The notes under the pieces: model-generated
Seen by the model: only the letters and a program-made list of their open reading frames with translations
Told to the model about the DNA's origin: nothing
Database searches by the model: none
Shown here: positions 4,714 through 43,870 of the stretch, in pieces
Layout of the letters: each line of letters starts with the position of its first letter
Position numbering within the stretch: position 1 is the stretch's first letter
Origin: Escherichia phage vB_Eco_SLUR29
Reading direction: 5' to 3' (one strand)
Sequence record: NC_054895.1
DNA length: 48,466 bases
Program-made: the position numbers and the translations under genes

Positions 4714-4962
4714 TCAGTAACAATCATTAACGTGAATCAGCACGGAAAAACGACACTTGCGTAAGCGGTGGCGCTTCTTGACGTACATATAAGCATCGCT
4801 GTAATACTTAAATTCAGTGGCAATGATGCCGAAAAAGTCGTCTGTAACATAGTGCCAATTGCCTCCTAAGCTGCGTCGCTGCACATGATAAGTAGAACAG
4901 TCTCGGCAAAATACGATCCGGTATTCCGGCTTAAACAGTCGTTTCAATGCGTTAAAAACCAT
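4714..4962 (-). CDS. hypothetical Cys-containing protein (82 aa)
   Basis: ORF with GAGGG SD; CRDC and additional Cys residues suggest possible metal binding. Confidence 0.5.
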   Translation of the reverse strand: MVFNALKRLFKPEYRIVFCRDCSTYHVQRRSLGGNWHYVTDDFFGIIATEFKYYSDAYMYVKKRHRLRKCRFSVLIHVNDCY

Positions 4963-5061
4963 AGTAGCGCCCTCATGCTATAAAGAAAAAGTAGCATTGA
5001 TAATACCGCAATCATTGCGGAATGAAAATCAAAAGGTGGCTTAGGATTCGTTGCGTTATTG

Positions 5062-5442
5062 TTATTTCCCAGCATTGCGCGCGATCCTCTTGTAACCATA
5101 GTAGAAATCATCGCCTACGCCACGGAATTTTAACGCGTTACGCGCCAGGCGGCGGATTCGACGATTATCCAGTTTGCCGTAATTGGTTGGCGCTTTAATC
5201 GTCTTGATTGGGCAGCCGCGATGGTTAGTGATTTGCTTGAGGGTAGCAACAATACCATCAAGCGAACGGATAGCGAAGCCGCCGAATCCAAGATCTTTAT
5301 TGATTAGATAGCCATTGATGCCAGGGATTCCGAATCTTTTGCTATCAACCTTAACAATCTGGCCCTTCTTCATTCCGCTATCTGGAATTGCGTAAGTAAC
5401 TAAGAATTTAGTGCCGACGCGAATTTTTCTGATGTTAACCAT
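5062..5442 (-). CDS. hypothetical protein (126 aa)
   Basis: ORF with AGAGGA SD. Confidence 0.55.
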   Translation of the reverse strand: MVNIRKIRVGTKFLVTYAIPDSGMKKGQIVKVDSKRFGIPGINGYLINKDLGFGGFAIRSLDGIVATLKQITNHRGCPIKTIKAPTNYGKLDNRRIRRLARNALKFRGVGDDFYYGYKRIARNAGK

Positions 5443-5512
5443 TGTGATTTCCTCTTGATTGTTGATGTGCGCATTATAGCGGGGCCGATAACCCCGCGTT
5501 TAGCAATTCGTG

Positions 5513-6103
5513 CTATTTAATCTGTGTGTGCTTCCATTTGACAGTATTGACGATCTCGTTTACAGCCAGTTCCGGCTTGCCGTCCTGCAAGTGGAAGTCA
5601 TAGTGATGGATTCGATAGTGATAACCGCTCAGGTCAATGTAGTCTCTCGAATCGCCAGCAAACGTGAAGCCGTCGCGATGCAATCGGCAAATATGCACTT
5701 CATGCCCTGCCTTAACAAGCGGCTTGATTTCTTCGGGGAATCCGCCATCACTGATTACAACCGCCAAATCTCGGTACATCTCGTGAATCTCTTCAACCAT
5801 TCGACGCCCGAAATACTGCTCCCCAAAAACTGGCTTCATTACATCCTCACTAATCCAGATCATGAATTGTCGAGGTGACTTGCCGCCTAAGATAACTTGA
5901 GGCTTTTCTTTTTGCTCTCGGTCGTTGTACAGGTCCATAAATTCATCGTATCGGTACACGCCCAGCATAGAAAAAGCAATATCGAACATCGACTGTTTGA
6001 ATGACGCCTTGACCGCTGGGTAACGATGGCCCGTTAGGTAAGCTGCAATAGTGTCCTTCCCGCAACCTGGCGGCCCATTAAGGATGATAATGTCTCGTTT
6101 CAT
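5513..6103 (-). CDS. P-loop kinase, possibly deoxynucleoside monophosphate kinase-like
   Basis: Walker A LNGPPGCGKDT at N-terminus; size and GKDT motif resemble phage dNMP kinases; GGAG SD. Confidence 0.55.
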   Translation of the reverse strand: MKRDIIILNGPPGCGKDTIAAYLTGHRYPAVKASFKQSMFDIAFSMLGVYRYDEFMDLYNDREQKEKPQVILGGKSPRQFMIWISEDVMKPVFGEQYFGRRMVEEIHEMYRDLAVVISDGGFPEEIKPLVKAGHEVHICRLHRDGFTFAGDSRDYIDLSGYHYRIHHYDFHLQDGKPELAVNEIVNTVKWKHTQIK

Positions 6104-6255: not shown

Positions 6256-6315
6256 CATTCCCCCCCTTTAGGTTTTCTCAACATGGCGCACTGCATGAAT
6301 GCGCCATAGCAAGAA

Positions 6316-6836: not shown

Positions 6837-7105
6837 TTTGTCTCGACGGTCATATGTTCTGTCTTCGTGCCTTTGCCATTGCTTTTCGACACTTCCCAGC
6901 TAGTAGCGCCCTTGCAGTTGGTGAAGTAAACAGTGCGATCGTCATAGAATCGGTAAACGGTGCAACCGTCAGCGGTGAATAGCTCCCTTACGCTGTAGTC
7001 ATCGCCAGGGTTAGCCATCTGCACATTGCCAACATGCGCGCCATCTTCTTTGCATCCGGTCAGGAATGCCATTGCCGCCAAAACGCTGATTAATGCCTTT
7101 TTCAT
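6833..7105 (-). CDS. lipoprotein (lipobox LTGC)
   Basis: signal peptide plus LTGC lipobox; 90 aa; AGAGGA SD. Confidence 0.55.
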   Translation of the reverse strand: MKKALISVLAAMAFLTGCKEDGAHVGNVQMANPGDDYSVRELFTADGCTVYRFYDDRTVYFTNCKGATSWEVSKSNGKGTKTEHMTVETK

Positions 7106-7569
7106 TGCTCTTCCTCTTTGATGATTTCGCGGATCATATCCTGGTAGCGGCTTACGCCCTCACAAGCTCCAGCCAGTTTATCCCCTTCCAGGTCAACGAT
7201 ATTCGGGATTGCTGCCAGTATGCGATCGGCAAACTTTTTGATCGCCCTTGCCTTGATGGCTGGCAATTCTTCGGGTGTGATGATTTTCCTTTTCGATTCG
7301 CGGACCATGCGGAAAACGTAAAATTTATCATCTTCCGTTTCCTCTACCTTGATGCTTACCCGACCTGCGGCCATTACTTCTGGAACGCGGTTGATAATGG
7401 TCCGGCTGTAGGATGAACTGCGCGTGATCTTGTAGCAGTCGTCACCGCTTAACATTCCGGCCAGGTCAATTAGTGACATTTTATACTCTTCAATATCGCC
7501 ACTAGCCAGGCGGCGACCAAGCTCGCGAAGCCAATCGCAATAGTCCTTAGTGGTCTTCTGTTCCATTTC
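7102..7569 (-). CDS. hypothetical protein (155 aa, MEQKTTKDY...)
   Basis: first gene of leftward early operon; GGAGGAAAGG SD; consensus sigma70 promoter immediately upstream. Confidence 0.55.
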   Translation of the reverse strand, partial: EMEQKTTKDYCDWLRELGRRLASGDIEEYKMSLIDLAGMLSGDDCYKITRSSSYSRTIINRVPEVMAAGRVSIKVEETEDDKFYVFRMVRESKRKIITPEELPAIKARAIKKFADRILAAIPNIVDLEGDKLAGACEGVSRYQDMIREIIKEEEQ

Positions 7570-7597
7570 CTTTCCTCCAGTTGTTGACTGTTGGCGC

Positions 7598-7625
7598 ATT
7601 ATAAAAGCTATTTGGTGCGTGTCAA
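7598..7625 (-). promoter_or_regulatory. sigma70-type promoter (TTGACA-16-TATAAT) for leftward early operon
   Basis: minus-strand TTGACA at 7625..7620 and TATAAT at 7603..7598 with 16-nt spacer, about 30 nt upstream of ATG 7569. Confidence 0.6.
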
Positions 7626-8567: not shown

Positions 8568-8586
8568 ATAGCACTTTTTGTTAAAA
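8568..8586 (+). promoter_or_regulatory. conserved 19-bp early element, copy 2, with stem-loop GGGATAAC/GTTATCCC
   Basis: exact 19-mer; inverted repeat with TGGTATAGT (extended -10-like) in loop; CATCGAAACGAAC leader. Confidence 0.6.
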
Positions 8587-11358: not shown

Positions 11359-12075
11359 ATGACGATGTATAAAGGTTTAATATTCTCCCTATTTGATGGA
11401 TCTGGTAAAGCCGTTAAAGATTGGGCTGATAATGGCTATAAGTGCATTTGCTTTAATGCTGACGGCGGCGATCACGGTGATTACCAGTCAGTGCGCATAC
11501 AGCATGAGAATATCGAATACGTTAACGTCTGGATTGATGAAAGATTTTACCACCGCGCGCGCTGGGAGGAATGGGGCATTCCTGACTTTATTATGGCATT
11601 TCCGCCGTGCACTGACCTTGCAAATAGCGGATCTCGCCATTGGGCCAAAAAACGCCTTGAGAATCCATCTTTCCAGGATGAGGCCGCCGACACTTGCAGG
11701 ATCGCGGCTGATATAGCTGATTATTTCGGTGTTCCTTACATGATCGAAAATCCGGTTGGCAAGTTGTCAACGTTATGGCGAAAGCCTGATTATACGTTCC
11801 ATCCGTGCGATTACGCTGGCTATCTGCCGGAAGATGATAAACATCCCGACTTCCCTGATATTATTCCGGCGCGGGATCGCTATTTTAAGAAAACATGCCT
11901 CTGGACTGGCAACGGCTTTGTTATTCCTCCACGCGCTTTAATCCTGCCGAAAGAGAAAGACAAAGATAATCCAGGCTGGGCCAAAACTGGCGGCAAGTCA
12001 TCGCGCACAAAGATGATCCGCTCCCTCACTCCGCGCGGCTTTGCTCGCGCCGTCTTTGAGTCAAACTCAAAATAG
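11359..12075 (+). CDS. DNA (cytosine-5)-methyltransferase-like
   Basis: motif I FSLFDGSG, PPC catalytic-Cys motif (FPPCTDL), ENP/ENV-like motif (MIENPVGK); TAG stop lies inside next 19-mer element. Confidence 0.65.
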   Translation: MTMYKGLIFSLFDGSGKAVKDWADNGYKCICFNADGGDHGDYQSVRIQHENIEYVNVWIDERFYHRARWEEWGIPDFIMAFPPCTDLANSGSRHWAKKRLENPSFQDEAADTCRIAADIADYFGVPYMIENPVGKLSTLWRKPDYTFHPCDYAGYLPEDDKHPDFPDIIPARDRYFKKTCLWTGNGFVIPPRALILPKEKDKDNPGWAKTGGKSSRTKMIRSLTPRGFARAVFESNSK

Positions 12076-23250: not shown

Positions 23251-23269
23251 CATTAGCAAAAAGTGCTAT
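23251..23269 (-). promoter_or_regulatory. degenerate copy of 19-mer element (16/19), reverse orientation relative to adjacent + gene
   Basis: CATTAGCAAAAAGTGCTAT directly upstream of SD of tail fiber gene. Confidence 0.4.
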
Positions 23270-26810: not shown

Positions 26811-27467
<657 letters not shown>

Positions 27468-27725
27468 TTATTCCTTCTCGCTTTCAAGCATTTTAATAAA
27501 TTCTTCTGTTGATTCAGCAACCAACCTCTCGCGCTCTTTGTTTCCCTTGCTCATCGTTGCAACAAGGATAACGTTGTCAATGGATGCAACCACGTCCTTG
27601 ATATAAGTCTTCATTTCTTCCGACTCTTTAATGTTCATCGGCTTAATAAATTCTTTCATTGCAATGGTTACTCGATCAATGAATCGTTCTAAATGCAATA
27701 ATGTGGCATTGTCTTTATCTGTCAT
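27468..27725 (-). CDS. hypothetical protein (85 aa)
   Basis: ORF within recombination operon. Confidence 0.5.
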   Translation of the reverse strand: MTDKDNATLLHLERFIDRVTIAMKEFIKPMNIKESEEMKTYIKDVVASIDNVILVATMSKGNKERERLVAESTEEFIKMLESEKE

Positions 27726-27800
27726 TTCTCATTCTCACGTTATCTGGTTGGCGAATTATATCACCAACCATTATAAAAGTTTAGCTATTTGTTTAGTTTG

Positions 27801-28886: not shown

Positions 28887-28914
28887 ATTGTAGCCATTTG
28901 GTTGATTTAGTCAA
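28887..28914 (-). promoter_or_regulatory. sigma70-type promoter (TTGACT-16-TACAAT) for recombination operon
   Basis: minus-strand hexamers at 28914..28909 and 28892..28887. Confidence 0.55.
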
Positions 28915-29283: not shown

Positions 29284-29302
29284 GTAGCACTTTTTGCTAA
29301 AC
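29284..29302 (+). promoter_or_regulatory. degenerate copy of 19-mer element (GTAGCACTTTTTGCTAAAC) with -10-like TATAGT
   Basis: TATAGT 21 nt after TTGCTA; ACAACAACAAAGGAG leader; precedes lipoprotein gene. Confidence 0.45.
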
Positions 29303-29356
29303 GCGCGCCTTAAAATCGTGTATAGTTGAACCAACAACAACAAAGGAGATGAAAAG

Positions 29357-29584
29357 ATGAAAAAGTTAATTGCCGTTTTAATCGCAGCCGTTGCGCTGAC
29401 TGGTTGCGCAAATATGCCTAAACGTGAATGCACGGCTATTTATGAAAATAGCGGAATGCAGTATTCAGTTGCTATCTTTGGGGCAAAACGAGTTGGCGAC
29501 CGCACTCTTGTCAAGGCTGGCTATCCATTTAATTTTCAGTGGGTGAGCATTGATAACTTTAAAAACGCTGATTGCAGTCTGTAA
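29357..29584 (+). CDS. small lipoprotein (75 aa), candidate superinfection-exclusion (Cor-like) protein
   Basis: signal peptide plus LTGC lipobox; isolated gene next to tail module. Confidence 0.5.
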   Translation: MKKLIAVLIAAVALTGCANMPKRECTAIYENSGMQYSVAIFGAKRVGDRTLVKAGYPFNFQWVSIDNFKNADCSL

Positions 29585-40076: not shown

Positions 40077-40095
40077 ATAGCACTTTTTGTTAAAA
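40077..40095 (+). promoter_or_regulatory. exact 19-mer copy in plus orientation inside leftward structural operon
   Basis: ATAGCACTTTTTGTTAAAA; TAGATT 22 nt after TTGTTA; about 45 nt before terminator at 40141; its reverse complement abuts SD of G gene. Confidence 0.45.
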
Positions 40096-40132
40096 GTGGA
40101 ATTAATTTATTTGATAGATTGATTTTACAGGA

Positions 40133-40160
40133 ATGAAAAAAGGGGCGCAACGCCCCTTGT
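40133..40160 (-). terminator. intrinsic terminator after major tail protein gene
   Basis: minus-strand GGGGCGTTGCGCCCCT followed by TTTTTTT. Confidence 0.7.
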
Positions 40161-40161
40161 T

Positions 40162-43826: not shown

Positions 43827-43845
43827 ATAGCACTTTTTGTTAAAC
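43827..43845 (+). promoter_or_regulatory. 19-mer copy (ATAGCACTTTTTGTTAAAC) in plus orientation inside structural operon
   Basis: 18/19 match; TATTAG 22 nt after TTGTTA. Confidence 0.4.
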
Positions 43846-43870
43846 GTGCAATGTTTTTTTATGCTATTAG

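What the first reader, a model, noticed from the sequence alone, without database searches (positions are those of the whole stretch)
4963..5061. Promoter-in-hairpin architecture also occurs without the 19-mer
On the minus strand upstream of gene 4714..4962, TTGATT is followed 21 nt later by TATTAT, which sits at the 3' end of the inverted repeat CCGCAATGATTGCGG. A similar TATAAT-in-hairpin (GGTTGGTG ATATAATT CGCCAACC) occurs at about 27740-27790 upstream of gene 27468..27725. The stem-loop plus -10 unit thus seems to be a general design in this genome, with the 19-mer an added, possibly regulatory, layer.
Basis: seen in the sequence. Interest (0 to 1): 0.4.

Follow-up and report, generated by a model that had tools for sequence, protein, structure and literature searches.

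The report
Promoter-with-hairpin: one real, one coding
Of the two "promoter inside a hairpin" sites, the first lies inside a small conserved membrane-protein gene and looks like chance, while the second is a real, conserved phage promoter: a worn-down member of the known 19-mer repeat family, whose hairpin most likely acts on RNA read through from the upstream gene.

Summary
The window is a T1-like coliphage (Drexlerviridae, Warwickvirus-like). The quoted sequences are all present.

**Site A (4963-5061)**
- It is not intergenic. It lies inside a conserved 43-codon ORF (5075..4944, minus strand) for a small membrane protein.
- That ORF is annotated as a CDS in several relatives and is detectable in 146 phage records.
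- The stem CCGCAA/TTGCGG is not conserved.
- The TTGATT-21-TATTAT spacing is too long for sigma70.
- Hairpin-next-to-(-10) units outside 19-mer promoters occur at the chance rate.

**Site B (27746-27790)**
- It is a real extended -10 promoter (TGaTATAAT) whose -10 hexamer is the hairpin loop.
- It sits after recE in every Drexlerviridae lineage examined, with at least 12 different stem sequences and strong covariation.
- It is not free of the 19-mer. In TLS the orthologous site is a canonical 19-mer promoter, and the window keeps the 3' half at the canonical spacing.

**The hairpins**
- Across 72 19-mer promoters in seven genomes the hairpins are significant.
- They tolerate G.T but not A.C mismatches on the sense strand.
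- They are weak or absent at promoters with no upstream co-directional gene.
- This fits attenuators or insulators acting on read-through RNA, as in the T4-type PeSL cassettes, better than cruciform switches.

This is a new member of a known kind and of modest interest.

The parts
4944..5075 (-). Site A: conserved 43-codon ORF, MLGNNNNATNPKPPFDFHSAMIAVLSMLLFLYSMRALLWFLTH*. It encodes a small membrane protein (N-terminal NPKPPFDF motif plus a hydrophobic helix). It overlaps the stop of gene 5062..5442 and the start of gene 4714..4962, and it fills the supposed intergenic gap.
   Evidence: Translation is. The same-length ORF is kept in Hanrivervirus-like, BabyEgg and Klebsiella-phage relatives, with 9-10 synonymous codon changes per pair and conservative hydrophobic substitutions. 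tblastn finds it in 146 phage records. It is annotated as a CDS in ExeQuayColi, JLBYU09 and BabyEgg. A Shine-Dalgarno-like AAGAGGA lies about 9 nt upstream of the ATG.
5006..5020 (-). Site A inverted repeat CCGCAA-TGA-TTGCGG. It encodes Ser-Ala-Met-Ile-Ala within the small ORF.
   Evidence: Present. It is not conserved: relatives have GAAATCATGATTGTG. Pair counts do not differ from the controls.
5000..5032 (-). Site A promoter-like strings: TTGATT (5032-5027), TTTTCA (5028-5023) and TATTAT (5005-5000).
   Evidence: TTGATT lies 21 nt from TATTAT, which is too far. TTTTCA-17-TATTAT scores 9/12, at the shuffle expectation. In relatives TATTAT becomes TTATTC/TATTCT.
5473..5516 (-). Canonical G-type 19-mer promoter that most likely drives the operon containing site A: ATAGCACGAATTGCTAAAC (5516-5498), the spacer hairpin GCGGGG-ttatcgg-CCCCGC, and TATAAT (5478-5473).
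   Evidence: hairpin -14 kcal/mol.
27779..27797 (-). Site B: remnant of the 19-mer, ACTAAACAAATAGCTAAAC. The 3' part AAATAGCTAAAC (27790-27779) is conserved. The 5' ATAGCAC half is lost in this lineage.
   Evidence: Alignment A1. It matches 10 of 15 specified consensus positions, against 13 of 15 in Hanrivervirus/T1-like phages (ACAGCACAAATAGCTAAAC) and 15 of 15 in TLS-like phages (ATAGCACTTTTTGCTAAAA). All have an 18-nt spacing to the -10.
27755..27763 (-). Site B extended -10 element TGaTATAAT. The hexamer is at 27760-27755.
   Evidence: The T, A, T and final T of the hexamer are invariant, and the TG is at least 90% conserved, across 20 diverged orthologues.
27745..27770 (-). Site B stem-loop: the 5' arm TGGTTGGTGA (27770-27761), the loop TATAAT, and the 3' arm TCGCCAACCA (27754-27745). 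It contains one U.G pair.
   Evidence: Fold is -16.9 kcal/mol, z = -5.5. For the 8-bp core (-21..-14 with -5..+3), 78.8% of cells pair against 59.1% in shuffles, 7 of 8 pairs change on both sides, 35 cells are compensatory against 13.4 in shuffles (0 of 500 reach this), and slid controls pair at 53% or less.
27770..27775 (-). A second, upstream TATAAT hexamer. It is specific to the window lineage and overlaps the start of the 5' arm.
   Evidence: It is absent from the Hanrivervirus, T1 and TLS orthologues.
27726..27748 (-). Inferred transcription start (about 27748, 7 nt after the -10) and the short leader with a GAG-rich Shine-Dalgarno region before the ATG at 27725.
   Evidence: This is an inference. 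In 72 19-mer promoters, C at -1 (53 of 72) and A at +1 (51 of 72) are conserved 7 nt downstream of the -10. The start has not been mapped.
27468..27725 (-). 85-codon ORF downstream of site B. It is a variable cassette: in several close and distant relatives the same promoter and leader run straight into the Erf-like gene (26811..27464).
   Evidence: Similarity breaks exactly at the ATG (the matches end at query positions 216-219, L015 and L011, L017).

Best explanation
The two sites are different things.

Site A is the coding sequence of a small, conserved, single-helix membrane protein. It is translated from a polycistronic mRNA that most likely starts at the canonical 19-mer promoter about 450 nt upstream (5516-5473). 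Its inverted repeat and its TATTAT are by-products of codon choice in one lineage.

Site B is a real sigma70 promoter of the extended -10 type that drives the recombination genes downstream of recE. It belongs to the Drexlerviridae 19-mer (TLS '21-nt repeat') promoter family. That family is built as follows:
- an upstream element at about -50 to -32;
- a fixed 18-19-nt spacer;
- a conserved G at -14;
- a -10 hexamer;
- C-1/A+1 at the inferred start.
The window lineage has lost the 5' half of the upstream element.

The stem-loop uses the only freely evolvable positions of this compact cassette. Either it lies within the spacer, or it pairs the spacer with the discriminator so that it brackets the -10. 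Transcripts that start at the promoter begin inside or after the 3' arm, so they lack the hairpin. Only RNA read through from the upstream gene can form it. There it most likely attenuates, terminates or 3'-protects the upstream transcript and so insulates successive transcription units, as shown experimentally for the T4-type PeSL cassettes.

Shown here: the coding status of site A; the conservation and covariation at site B; family membership by orthology; the strand bias of the wobble pairs; and the dependence of hairpins on upstream genes.

Inferred: the transcription start position, promoter activity, and the RNA-level function.
For: Site A:
- Coding is supported.
- There is no structural conservation and no enrichment over chance.

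Site B:
- A promoter follows recE in all 45 Drexlerviridae loci, with an invariant extended -10 and variable stems.
- Covariation is 0 of 500 shuffles, with weak slid controls.
- The orthologue in the locus whose contig length equals the TLS genome (L036) is a canonical 19-mer promoter.

The family:
- 72 unique 19-mer promoters have a mean hairpin z of -2.3, and 58% reach p <= 0.05.
- The spacing is 19 nt in 61 and 18 nt in 11. G-14 occurs in 59 of 72, C-1 in 53 of 72 and A+1 in 51 of 72.

RNA level:
- In 60 distinct stems, interior G.T outnumbers A.C 35 to 4. Composition-matched shuffles give 159 to 233.
- The sense strand folds better than the antisense strand in 67 against 26 cases.
- Promoters with an upstream co-directional ORF have mean z -2.81 (n = 49). 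Those without have -1.18 (n = 23), Mann-Whitney p = 0.006.
- In the window, the two block-first promoters (8181, 21707) and the isolated one (29284) lack significant hairpins.

Precedent:
- PeSL cassettes place their stem-loops between -35 and -10 or over the -10, contain G-T pairs, and terminate transcription in a lacZ assay (PMC2839356).
Against: - No transcription start or 3'-end data exist for any of these phages in the searched literature. Promoter activity and the RNA role are therefore inferred.
- The hairpins are not followed by U-tracts, so classical intrinsic termination is not predicted.
- At site B the stem keeps the same register around the -10 across genera. An RNA-only role does not strictly require this.
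- The statistics pool orthologous promoters and are not phylogenetically independent.
- The filter used required A at -11 and T at -7, so those two columns of the logo are circular.
- Site A could still carry a weak internal promoter in the Warwickvirus lineage. There is no sequence variation there with which to test it.
Confidence: 0.6

Rival explanations
1. The hairpin or cruciform is an intrinsic DNA-level part of the promoter. For example, supercoil-driven extrusion exposes the -10 as single-stranded DNA. On this model the unit is a general design independent of the 19-mer.
For: At site B and at many 19-mer promoters the -10 sits exactly in the loop. At site B the stem register (-21..-14 with -5..+3) is conserved across genera. 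The 5' arm includes the TG of the extended -10, so the sense-strand hairpin would resemble a fork-junction promoter. That resemblance is an inference.
Against: - A cruciform needs both strands to pair, but mismatches are G.T on the sense strand 35 to 4, which means A.C on the other strand.
- About a third of the stems lie entirely in the spacer and leave the -10 outside.
- Hairpins are weak or absent at the window's two block-first promoters and at the isolated one, although these keep the 19-mer and the -10.
- Stems of 5-10 bp with 6-16-nt loops are poor cruciform formers by established DNA energetics.
- The sigma70-type promoter matches with a good -35 have no hairpin.
- The only non-19-mer example left, site B, is itself a decayed 19-mer promoter.
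Confidence: 0.12
2. The inverted repeats are operators for a dimeric DNA-binding regulator that overlaps the -10.
For: Palindromes overlapping the -10 are typical repressor sites (established knowledge). A putative AbrB-like regulator is annotated nearby in a relative.
Against: The stem sequences differ between promoters and between lineages, with at least 12 variants at site B alone. Complementarity is preserved rather than sequence, and G.T pairs are tolerated. That is the signature of a nucleic-acid structure, not of a protein recognition sequence.
Confidence: 0.04
3. Site A is a genuine internal promoter-plus-hairpin embedded in the small ORF. It would give extra transcription of gene 4714..4962 in the Warwickvirus lineage.
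For: TTTTCA-17-TATTAT scores 9/12. A 6-bp stem abuts the -10, as in spacer-type 19-mer promoters. The local fold has z = -2.1.
Against: - Match quality and frequency equal the shuffle expectation.
- There is no G at -14 or TG, no C-1/A+1, and no 19-mer remnant beyond 10 of 19 at a shifted register (direct reading).
- Neither the stem nor TATTAT is conserved, while the protein is.
- A canonical promoter lies about 450 nt upstream.
Confidence: 0.08
4. The hairpins act on read-through RNA purely as 3'-end stabilisers or processing sites, like REP or intercistronic stem-loops, and not as attenuators or terminators.
For: The hairpins are not followed by a U-tract. A promoter-less intercistronic hairpin of similar type exists at 6259-6315, -22 kcal/mol, z = -2.65. 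The sense-strand bias and the dependence on upstream genes fit this model equally well.
Against: The PeSL stem-loop, the closest analogue, reduced downstream reporter expression as strongly as rrnB T1. No data here separate the two RNA-level roles.
Confidence: 0.2

Closest known systems
TLS / T1-like intergenic 21-nt direct repeats (aaATAGCACnnnTTGnTAAAA), German, Kropinski, Misra et al. 2024, PMC11447400
   Same: It is intergenic, oriented with transcription and lies upstream of start codons. The window has 16 copies. Site B is orthologous to one such repeat in the TLS-like loci.
   Different: That paper leaves the function open (stoperator, enhancer site or UP element). A word search of it found no 'hairpin' or 'stem-loop', and the passages retrieved describe no fixed spacing to a -10. 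Here the repeat sits a fixed 18-19 nt upstream of a -10 with G-14, and it is usually accompanied by a covarying stem. Site B in the window has lost the ATAGCAC half.
PeSL (promoter-early stem-loop) cassettes of T4-type phages RB49/phi1, Arbiol et al. 2010, PMC2839356
   Same: Both are repeated intergenic cassettes that run from the upstream stop to the downstream ATG. Both have a sigma70 promoter with an AT-rich upstream region and a GC-rich stem-loop placed between the -35 region and the -10 or overlapping the -10. Both contain G-T pairs and are associated with small variable genes. The PeSL stem-loop is proposed, and was shown in a reporter, to terminate or attenuate upstream transcription.
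   Different: The phage family is different and the sequences are unrelated. Here the upstream element is the 19-mer rather than a consensus -35. Terminator activity and mini-circle recombination were not tested. The 85-codon cassette at site B is not flanked by two cassettes.
Extended -10 (TGn) sigma70 promoters of E. coli
   Same: Site B reads TGaTATAAT and has no usable -35 (best 3 of 6). The family conserves G at -14.
   Different: Activity was not measured. Most family members have G-14 without T-15 (T at -15 in 21 of 72) and carry an additional conserved upstream element centred near -41, where class II activators bind. The activator comparison is an inference from my own knowledge.
Phage N4 virion-RNA-polymerase hairpin promoters, and the supercoil-extruded cruciform promoter of Horwitz and Loeb 1988 (both from my own knowledge, not checked here)
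   Same: A short DNA hairpin at a promoter serves as a regulatory or recognition structure.
   Different: N4 hairpins have 3-nt loops and are read by a phage-encoded polymerase, whereas T1-like phages encode none (PMC11447400). The strand-biased wobble pairs and the dependence on upstream genes found here argue for RNA and not for extruded DNA.

Membership tests
Sigma70 extended -10 promoter (site B) | A -10 hexamer with A at position 2 and T at position 6, preceded by TG one base upstream | tested here: met
   TGaTATAAT at 27763-27755. The hexamer T, A, T and final T are invariant, and the TG is at least 90% conserved, in 20 diverged orthologues.
Sigma70 extended -10 promoter (site B) | Lies upstream of, and is oriented with, a gene that has a ribosome-binding site | tested here: met
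   It lies in the 75-nt gap between the recE stop (27801) and the ATG at 27725. The same arrangement holds in all lineages whatever the downstream gene is.
Sigma70 extended -10 promoter (site B) | A primary transcript 5' end about 7 nt downstream of the -10 | not testable with these tools
   No start-site data were found. The only indirect support is the C-1/A+1 conservation in the family.
Drexlerviridae 19-mer / 21-nt repeat promoter family (site B) | Match to the consensus ATAGCAYnnnTTGnTAAAM | tested here: inconclusive
   The window matches 10 of 15 specified positions. The 3' half TAAAC and the G of TTG are kept, and the ATAGCA half is lost. Hanrivervirus/T1 orthologues match 13 of 15 and TLS orthologues 15 of 15. 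The site is not found by the <=2-mismatch search.
Drexlerviridae 19-mer / 21-nt repeat promoter family (site B) | Fixed 18-19-nt spacing from the repeat's 3' end to the -10 | tested here: met
   There are 18 nt between AAATAGCTAAAC and TATAAT in the window and in all orthologues. The family as a whole has 19 nt in 61 promoters and 18 nt in 11.
Drexlerviridae 19-mer / 21-nt repeat promoter family (site B) | Positional orthology with a canonical family member | tested here: met
   Directly after the recE stop, the TLS-like loci L032-L040 carry TAAATAGCACTTTTTGCTAAAA, a spacer, gTATACTa and the stem GATGCGTG/CACGCATC.
Drexlerviridae 19-mer / 21-nt repeat promoter family (site A) | Consensus repeat at the canonical spacing, in an intergenic position | tested here: not met
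   The best register gives 10 of 19, at a 20-nt spacing (direct reading). The site lies inside a conserved ORF. It is not returned by the pattern searches.
PeSL-like promoter/stem-loop cassette (site B and the 19-mer promoters) | A stem-loop between the upstream element and the -10, or overlapping the -10, within a repeated intergenic promoter cassette | tested here: met
   Both geometries are found. The mean z is -2.3 over 72 promoters, and site B has z = -5.5. The definition is taken from PMC2839356.
PeSL-like promoter/stem-loop cassette (site B and the 19-mer promoters) | The stem-loop terminates or attenuates transcription coming from upstream | not testable with these tools
   Support is indirect only: the sense-strand G.T bias and the weakness of hairpins where there is no upstream gene. 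No U-tract follows the stems.
PeSL-like promoter/stem-loop cassette (site B and the 19-mer promoters) | Cassettes mediate insertion or deletion of adjacent small genes | tested here: inconclusive
   The 85-codon ORF after site B is present or absent, with the breakpoint exactly at the ATG. It is not flanked by a second cassette.
Intrinsic (rho-independent) terminator | A GC-rich stem followed directly by a U-tract | tested here: not met
   The scanner reports no terminator at either site. The stems are followed by AGATAACG at site B and by TATTATCAATG at site A.
Protein-coding gene (site A region) | An open frame of conserved length, with synonymous or conservative substitutions, a ribosome-binding site and homologues | tested here: met
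   The 132-nt frame is kept in 10 of 12 homologues. There are 9-10 synonymous codon changes per pair, and third-position differences exceed those at the first and second positions. It is found in 146 records by tblastn and annotated as a CDS in three relatives. It has no PHROG family.

The most novel reading that the evidence does not exclude
The most novel reading not excluded is that the stem bracketing the -10 is a DNA-level device. The non-template-strand hairpin would pair the TG-containing spacer arm with the discriminator and present the -10 hexamer as a single-stranded loop. That would be a built-in fork-junction mimic, letting host sigma70 polymerase use promoters without a -35 in a supercoil-dependent or replication-dependent way. 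On this reading the 19-mer is the binding site of an unidentified phage or host activator centred near -41. The conserved register at site B across genera, and the sense-strand-only pairing, are compatible with a non-template-strand hairpin as well as with RNA.
Probability: 0.1. Interest if true: 0.7.

Novelty: new member of a known kind. Interest (0 to 1): 0.33.

Why it matters
For this finding, the main value is corrective:
- One of the two exhibits is an overlooked small membrane-protein gene. It is unannotated in many related records (several records list only two CDSs under the match, while others list three).
- The other exhibit ties the supposedly 19-mer-free promoter back to the 19-mer family.

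[quoted passage not shown] The analysis here gives a concrete, testable architecture:
- the repeat;
- a fixed 18-19-nt spacer;
- a G-14 plus -10 core;
- a C/A start.

A covarying stem-loop accompanies this architecture and behaves like an RNA-level insulator between tandem transcription units. It parallels the PeSL cassettes of T4-type phages, which would suggest convergent use of promoter/stem-loop cassettes in unrelated lytic phages. The architecture is useful for annotating and engineering Drexlerviridae genomes.

Tried and rejected
- **TTGTTA inside the 19-mer as the -35.** Rejected, because it lies 22 nt from the -10 in all copies.
- **Hairpins as antisense-strand terminators (stem followed by TTTTAAC on the other strand).** Rejected, for two reasons. 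The wobble pairs are G.T on the sense strand, which means A.C on the antisense strand. In the bracketing type the T-run lies 9-12 nt from the stem.
- **Site A as a decayed 19-mer.** Only 10 of 19 positions match, at a shifted register, and relatives have no canonical repeat at that position. They have the ORF instead.
- **IMG/VR search with the two downstream small proteins.** This gave few loci, 8 and 1. The recE C-terminus query gave 62 loci and was used instead.
- **Literature searches for transcription-start or transcriptome data on T1-like phages.** Nothing usable was found. A full-text search for 'ATAGCAC' returned only unrelated primer hits.
- **Rfam.** No family matched anywhere in the window.
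- **PHROGs.** No family matched the 43-aa protein or its two neighbours.
- **RNAalifold on the site B alignment.** It recovered only part of the stem, because some lineages use a shifted register. The fixed-register pair count and the per-sequence helix search were used instead.
Full report
**Identity of the window.** The window is a T1-like coliphage of the family Drexlerviridae (Tempevirinae, Warwickvirus-like). It is 97% identical to Escherichia phage JLBYU07 over the tested 4 kb. With the degenerate consensus ATAGCAYnnnTTGnTAAAM it occurs 16 times. It is the known '21-nt intergenic direct repeat' of phage TLS, also reported in T1, Rtp and Rogue1. The 2024 TLS paper explicitly leaves its function open. 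A word search of that paper found no 'hairpin' or 'stem-loop' (PMC11447400).

**Observation check, site A.** On the minus strand:
- TTGATT is at 5032-5027.
- A 21-nt spacer follows.
- TATTAT is at 5005-5000.
- The repeat CCGCAA-TGA-TTGCGG (5020-5006) abuts TATTAT, exactly as described.

A 21-nt spacer is outside the sigma70 range. The consensus scanner instead finds TTTTCA-17-TATTAT at 9/12, with no TG. The surrounding 4 kb holds 6 such matches against 6.0 +/- 2.7 in shuffles.

**Site A is coding.** When the region was aligned with relatives, the 'intergenic' 99 nt turned out to be highly conserved in a codon-like pattern.
- It lies within an ORF at 5075..4944 that encodes MLGNNNNATNPKPPFDFHSAMIAVLSMLLFLYSMRALLWFLTH.
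- The ORF overlaps the stop of the upstream gene and the start of the downstream gene. AAGAGGA precedes its ATG.
- Hanrivervirus-like phages, BabyEgg and a Klebsiella phage keep the frame. Ten of 12 homologues have the same 132-nt length.
- They keep the NP(K/Q)PPFDF motif and a hydrophobic helix, with 9-10 synonymous codon changes per pair.
- tblastn finds the peptide in 146 phage records, down to about 38% identity.
- Three records annotate it as a CDS, one as 'putative FeoB-associated Cys-rich membrane protein'.

The stem is not kept in relatives, which read GAAATCATGATTGTG. Pair counts do not differ from shuffled or slid controls. Its fold is only mildly unusual: z = -2.1 locally and -1.0 for the 99 nt.

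I scanned the whole window for perfect stems of at least 6 bp that abut or enclose a -10-like hexamer. That gave 5 abutting and 14 enclosing units, against 2.5 +/- 1.4 and 9.0 +/- 3.3 in shuffles. After removing the canonical 19-mer promoters, 3 and 10 remain, which is chance level. A canonical G-type 19-mer promoter lies about 450 nt upstream: 5516-5498, a GCGGGG/CCCCGC hairpin and TATAAT at 5478-5473. It can serve this operon. Site A is therefore best read as coding sequence with incidental promoter-like strings.

**Observation check, site B.** GGTTGGTG-ATATAATT-CGCCAACC lies at 27769-27746.
- RNAfold extends it to 10 bp with the loop exactly TATAAT, at -16.9 kcal/mol and z = -5.5.
- The hexamer is preceded by TGa, which makes it an extended -10 element.
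- No acceptable -35 exists, which is why the consensus scanner missed it.
- The site lies in the 75-nt gap between the recE (exonuclease VIII) stop and an 85-codon ORF that is followed by an Erf-like gene.

**Comparative analysis of site B.** A search with the RecE C-terminus returned 62 loci, of which 45 are Drexlerviridae. Every one has a promoter-like cassette directly after the recE stop.
- The extended -10 is essentially invariant.
- The flanking stems differ. The variants seen are GGTTGGTG/CGCCAACC, GCGGTG/CACCGC, CGGGGTG/CATCCCG, GCGGGAT/ATCTCGC, TGGAGG/CCTCCA, GATGCGTG/CACGCATC, AGCCAATT/AATTGGCT, GCGGGC/GCCCGC, ATGAGGTG/CACCTCAT, CGGGGTG/CACCCCG, CGGTGATT/AATCACCG and TGATGCTCA/TGAGCATCA.
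- For a fixed 8-bp register (-21..-14 with -5..+3), 78.8% of cells pair against 59.1 +/- 2.6% in shuffles.
- Seven of 8 pairs change on both sides.
- 35 cells are compensatory against 13.4 +/- 3.1 in shuffles (0 of 500 reach this).
- The covariation score is 0.52, against 0.08-0.19 when the partner is slid.

The hairpin around the -10 is therefore under selection.

**Site B is not free of the 19-mer.**
- In the TLS-like loci the sequence after recE is TAAATAGCACTTTTTGCTAAAA, then 18 nt, then TATACT. This is a canonical repeat. One of these loci, L036, comes from a 49,902-bp contig, the size of the TLS genome.
- Hanrivervirus-like and T1-like loci have ACAGCACAAATAGCTAAAC, then 18 nt, then TATAAT. 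This matches 13 of 15 consensus positions and corresponds to the 'A' subtype of the TLS paper.
- The window lineage has ACTAAACAAATAGCTAAAC, then 18 nt, then TATAAT. This matches 10 of 15 positions. The ATAGCAC half is lost, and the TAAAC half and the spacing are kept.

Site B is thus a decayed member of the 19-mer family, not an independent class.

**Architecture of the family.** In seven genomes I found 72 unique 19-mer promoters. Each was selected for having a hexamer with A at position 2 and T at position 6 at 18-20 nt from the repeat, so those two positions are circular.
- The spacing is 19 nt in 61 and 18 nt in 11.
- G-14 occurs in 59 of 72 and G-13 in 53 of 72.
- T-10 occurs in 62, A-9 in 61, C-1 in 53 and A+1 in 51.
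- TTGTTA inside the repeat lies 22 nt from the -10 and cannot be a -35. The repeat spans about -50 to -32.

The region from the spacer to +10 folds more stably than shuffles that keep the -10 fixed: mean z is -2.3, and 58% reach p <= 0.05. Two geometries occur:
- The stem brackets the -10, for example at 8568, 9873, 12746, 6836 and 4222.
- The stem lies wholly within the spacer, for example at 12072, 18169, 19218 and 5497.

**How the hairpin most likely works.** Three results bear on the mechanism.
1. *Wobble-pair bias.* In 60 distinct stems, interior mismatches are G.T 35 times and A.C 4 times on the sense strand. Composition-matched shuffles give 159 to 233. The sense strand folds better than the antisense strand in 67 against 26 cases. 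A cruciform would need both strands to pair. The bias points to a sense single strand, most simply RNA.
2. *Start position.* The conserved C-1/A+1 places the start 7 nt after the -10, inside or just past the 3' arm. Transcripts from the promoter itself therefore lack the hairpin, and only read-through RNA can form it. This step is an inference.
3. *Dependence on upstream genes.* Promoters preceded by a co-directional ORF have mean z -2.81 (n = 49). Those without have -1.18 (n = 23; Mann-Whitney p = 0.006, orthologues not independent). In the window, the two block-first promoters (8181 and 21707) and the isolated one (29284) have z of -0.3, +0.8 and -1.0.

In addition, the three sigma70-type promoter matches with a good -35 and no 19-mer show no hairpin: 7625 TTGACA-16-TATAAT, 28914 and 26866.

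Together these results favour a stem-loop that acts on transcripts arriving from upstream. It would work as an attenuator or terminator, or as a 3'-end protector. It is squeezed into the only freely variable positions of a compact cassette, namely the spacer and the discriminator.

**Comparison with known systems.** This is the architecture described for the PeSL cassettes of the T4-type phages RB49 and phi1 (PMC2839356):
- they are repeated intergenic sigma70 promoters with an AT-rich upstream region;
[quoted passage not shown] - the stem-loop reduced reporter expression like rrnB T1;
- the cassettes flank small variable genes.

Consistent with that last point, the 85-codon ORF after site B is present in some relatives and absent in others, with the breakpoint exactly at the ATG. 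It is not flanked by two cassettes, however. Membership in the PeSL kind is therefore supported structurally. The defining activities, termination and recombination, could not be tested. No U-tract follows the stems, so classical intrinsic termination is not predicted.

**Verdict.**
Both strings exist, and only site B is more than chance.
The hairpin-plus-(-10) unit is real, but it belongs to the 19-mer promoter family rather than existing without it. A DNA or cruciform switch is the less likely mechanism.
- Novelty: a new member of a known kind, namely PeSL-like promoter/stem-loop cassettes in Drexlerviridae.
- There is a useful by-product. The analysis gives a concrete architecture for the unexplained T1/TLS 21-nt repeats.
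- Interest is modest.

Noticed in passing
window 7598-7625 (-): A perfect-consensus sigma70 promoter, TTGACA-16-TATAAT, lies upstream of gene 7102..7599. It has no 19-mer and no hairpin (z = +0.8). It is probably a strong early promoter.
   Followed up: partly
window 7607-7614, 26850-26857, 27784-27791 (all -), and 28892-28900 (-): CAAATAGC is the 5' start of the 21-nt repeat. It also occurs in the spacers of two 19-mer-free sigma70-type promoter matches (7625 and 26866), with CCAAATGGC in a third (28914), and upstream of site B. There are 11 copies against 2.7 expected, and 3 of the 11 are canonical repeats. It could be a half-site for a regulator that activates 19-mer promoters and represses early ones.
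   Followed up: partly
window 6259-6315 (-): A strong promoter-less intercistronic hairpin, ATGGCGCA...TGCGCCAT (-22 kcal/mol, z = -2.65), with no U-tract. It shows that RNA-type stem-loops between cistrons also exist apart from promoters.
   Followed up: partly
window 40077-40161 (+): A canonical 19-mer in antisense orientation within the structural-gene block. It is followed about 40 nt later by a bidirectional GC-rich terminator (GGGGCGCAACGCCCC). It could produce a very short antisense RNA. Its -10 (TAGATT) is weak.
   Followed up: no
window 43827-43866 (+) and 23251-23269 (-): These 19-mer copies lack a credible -10 at the canonical spacing (TATTAG and TTTCAA). One is antisense between capsid-region genes, next to a minus-strand terminator. 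They may be non-functional or serve another role.
   Followed up: no
window 29284-29584 (+): A 19-mer promoter (18-nt spacing, TATAGT) drives an isolated opposite-strand 75-codon ORF. The ORF begins MKKLIAVLIAAVAL, which looks like a lipoprotein or signal peptide and is reminiscent of the T1 Cor exclusion protein (from memory). This promoter has no significant hairpin.
   Followed up: partly
L011 16449 (-), L012 25206 (-), L014 25393 (-); L015 578 (+), L016 20600 (+): In some relatives the stem after a 19-mer is followed by a T-run, giving a full intrinsic-terminator shape with the -10-like hexamer in its loop (GCCTGGCA...TGTCAGGCTTTTTG; AAGGCTGGATTTTTCCAGCCTTTTTT). Promoter and terminator would then be fused in one element.
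   Followed up: no
L011 31392, L012 39254, L013 16618, L015 42425, L016 11150: One orthologous group of internal 19-mer promoters has no stem around the -10. Instead it carries a GC-rich hairpin (GGGCGGCACGGCGTCGCCC) about 12 nt downstream, in the leader.
   Followed up: no
window 27468-27725 (-): The 85-codon ORF after site B matches phrog_11265, which is labelled 'tail length tape measure protein'. Some GenBank records annotate it that way. Given its size and its position between recE and erf, the label looks like a propagated misannotation.
   Followed up: no
L013 (MG065669.1) homologue of ORF 5075..4944: A single-base deletion frameshifts the small ORF in this 'UNVERIFIED Campylobacter phage' record. 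These Campylobacter-labelled records are T1-like coliphage genomes by sequence.
   Followed up: no
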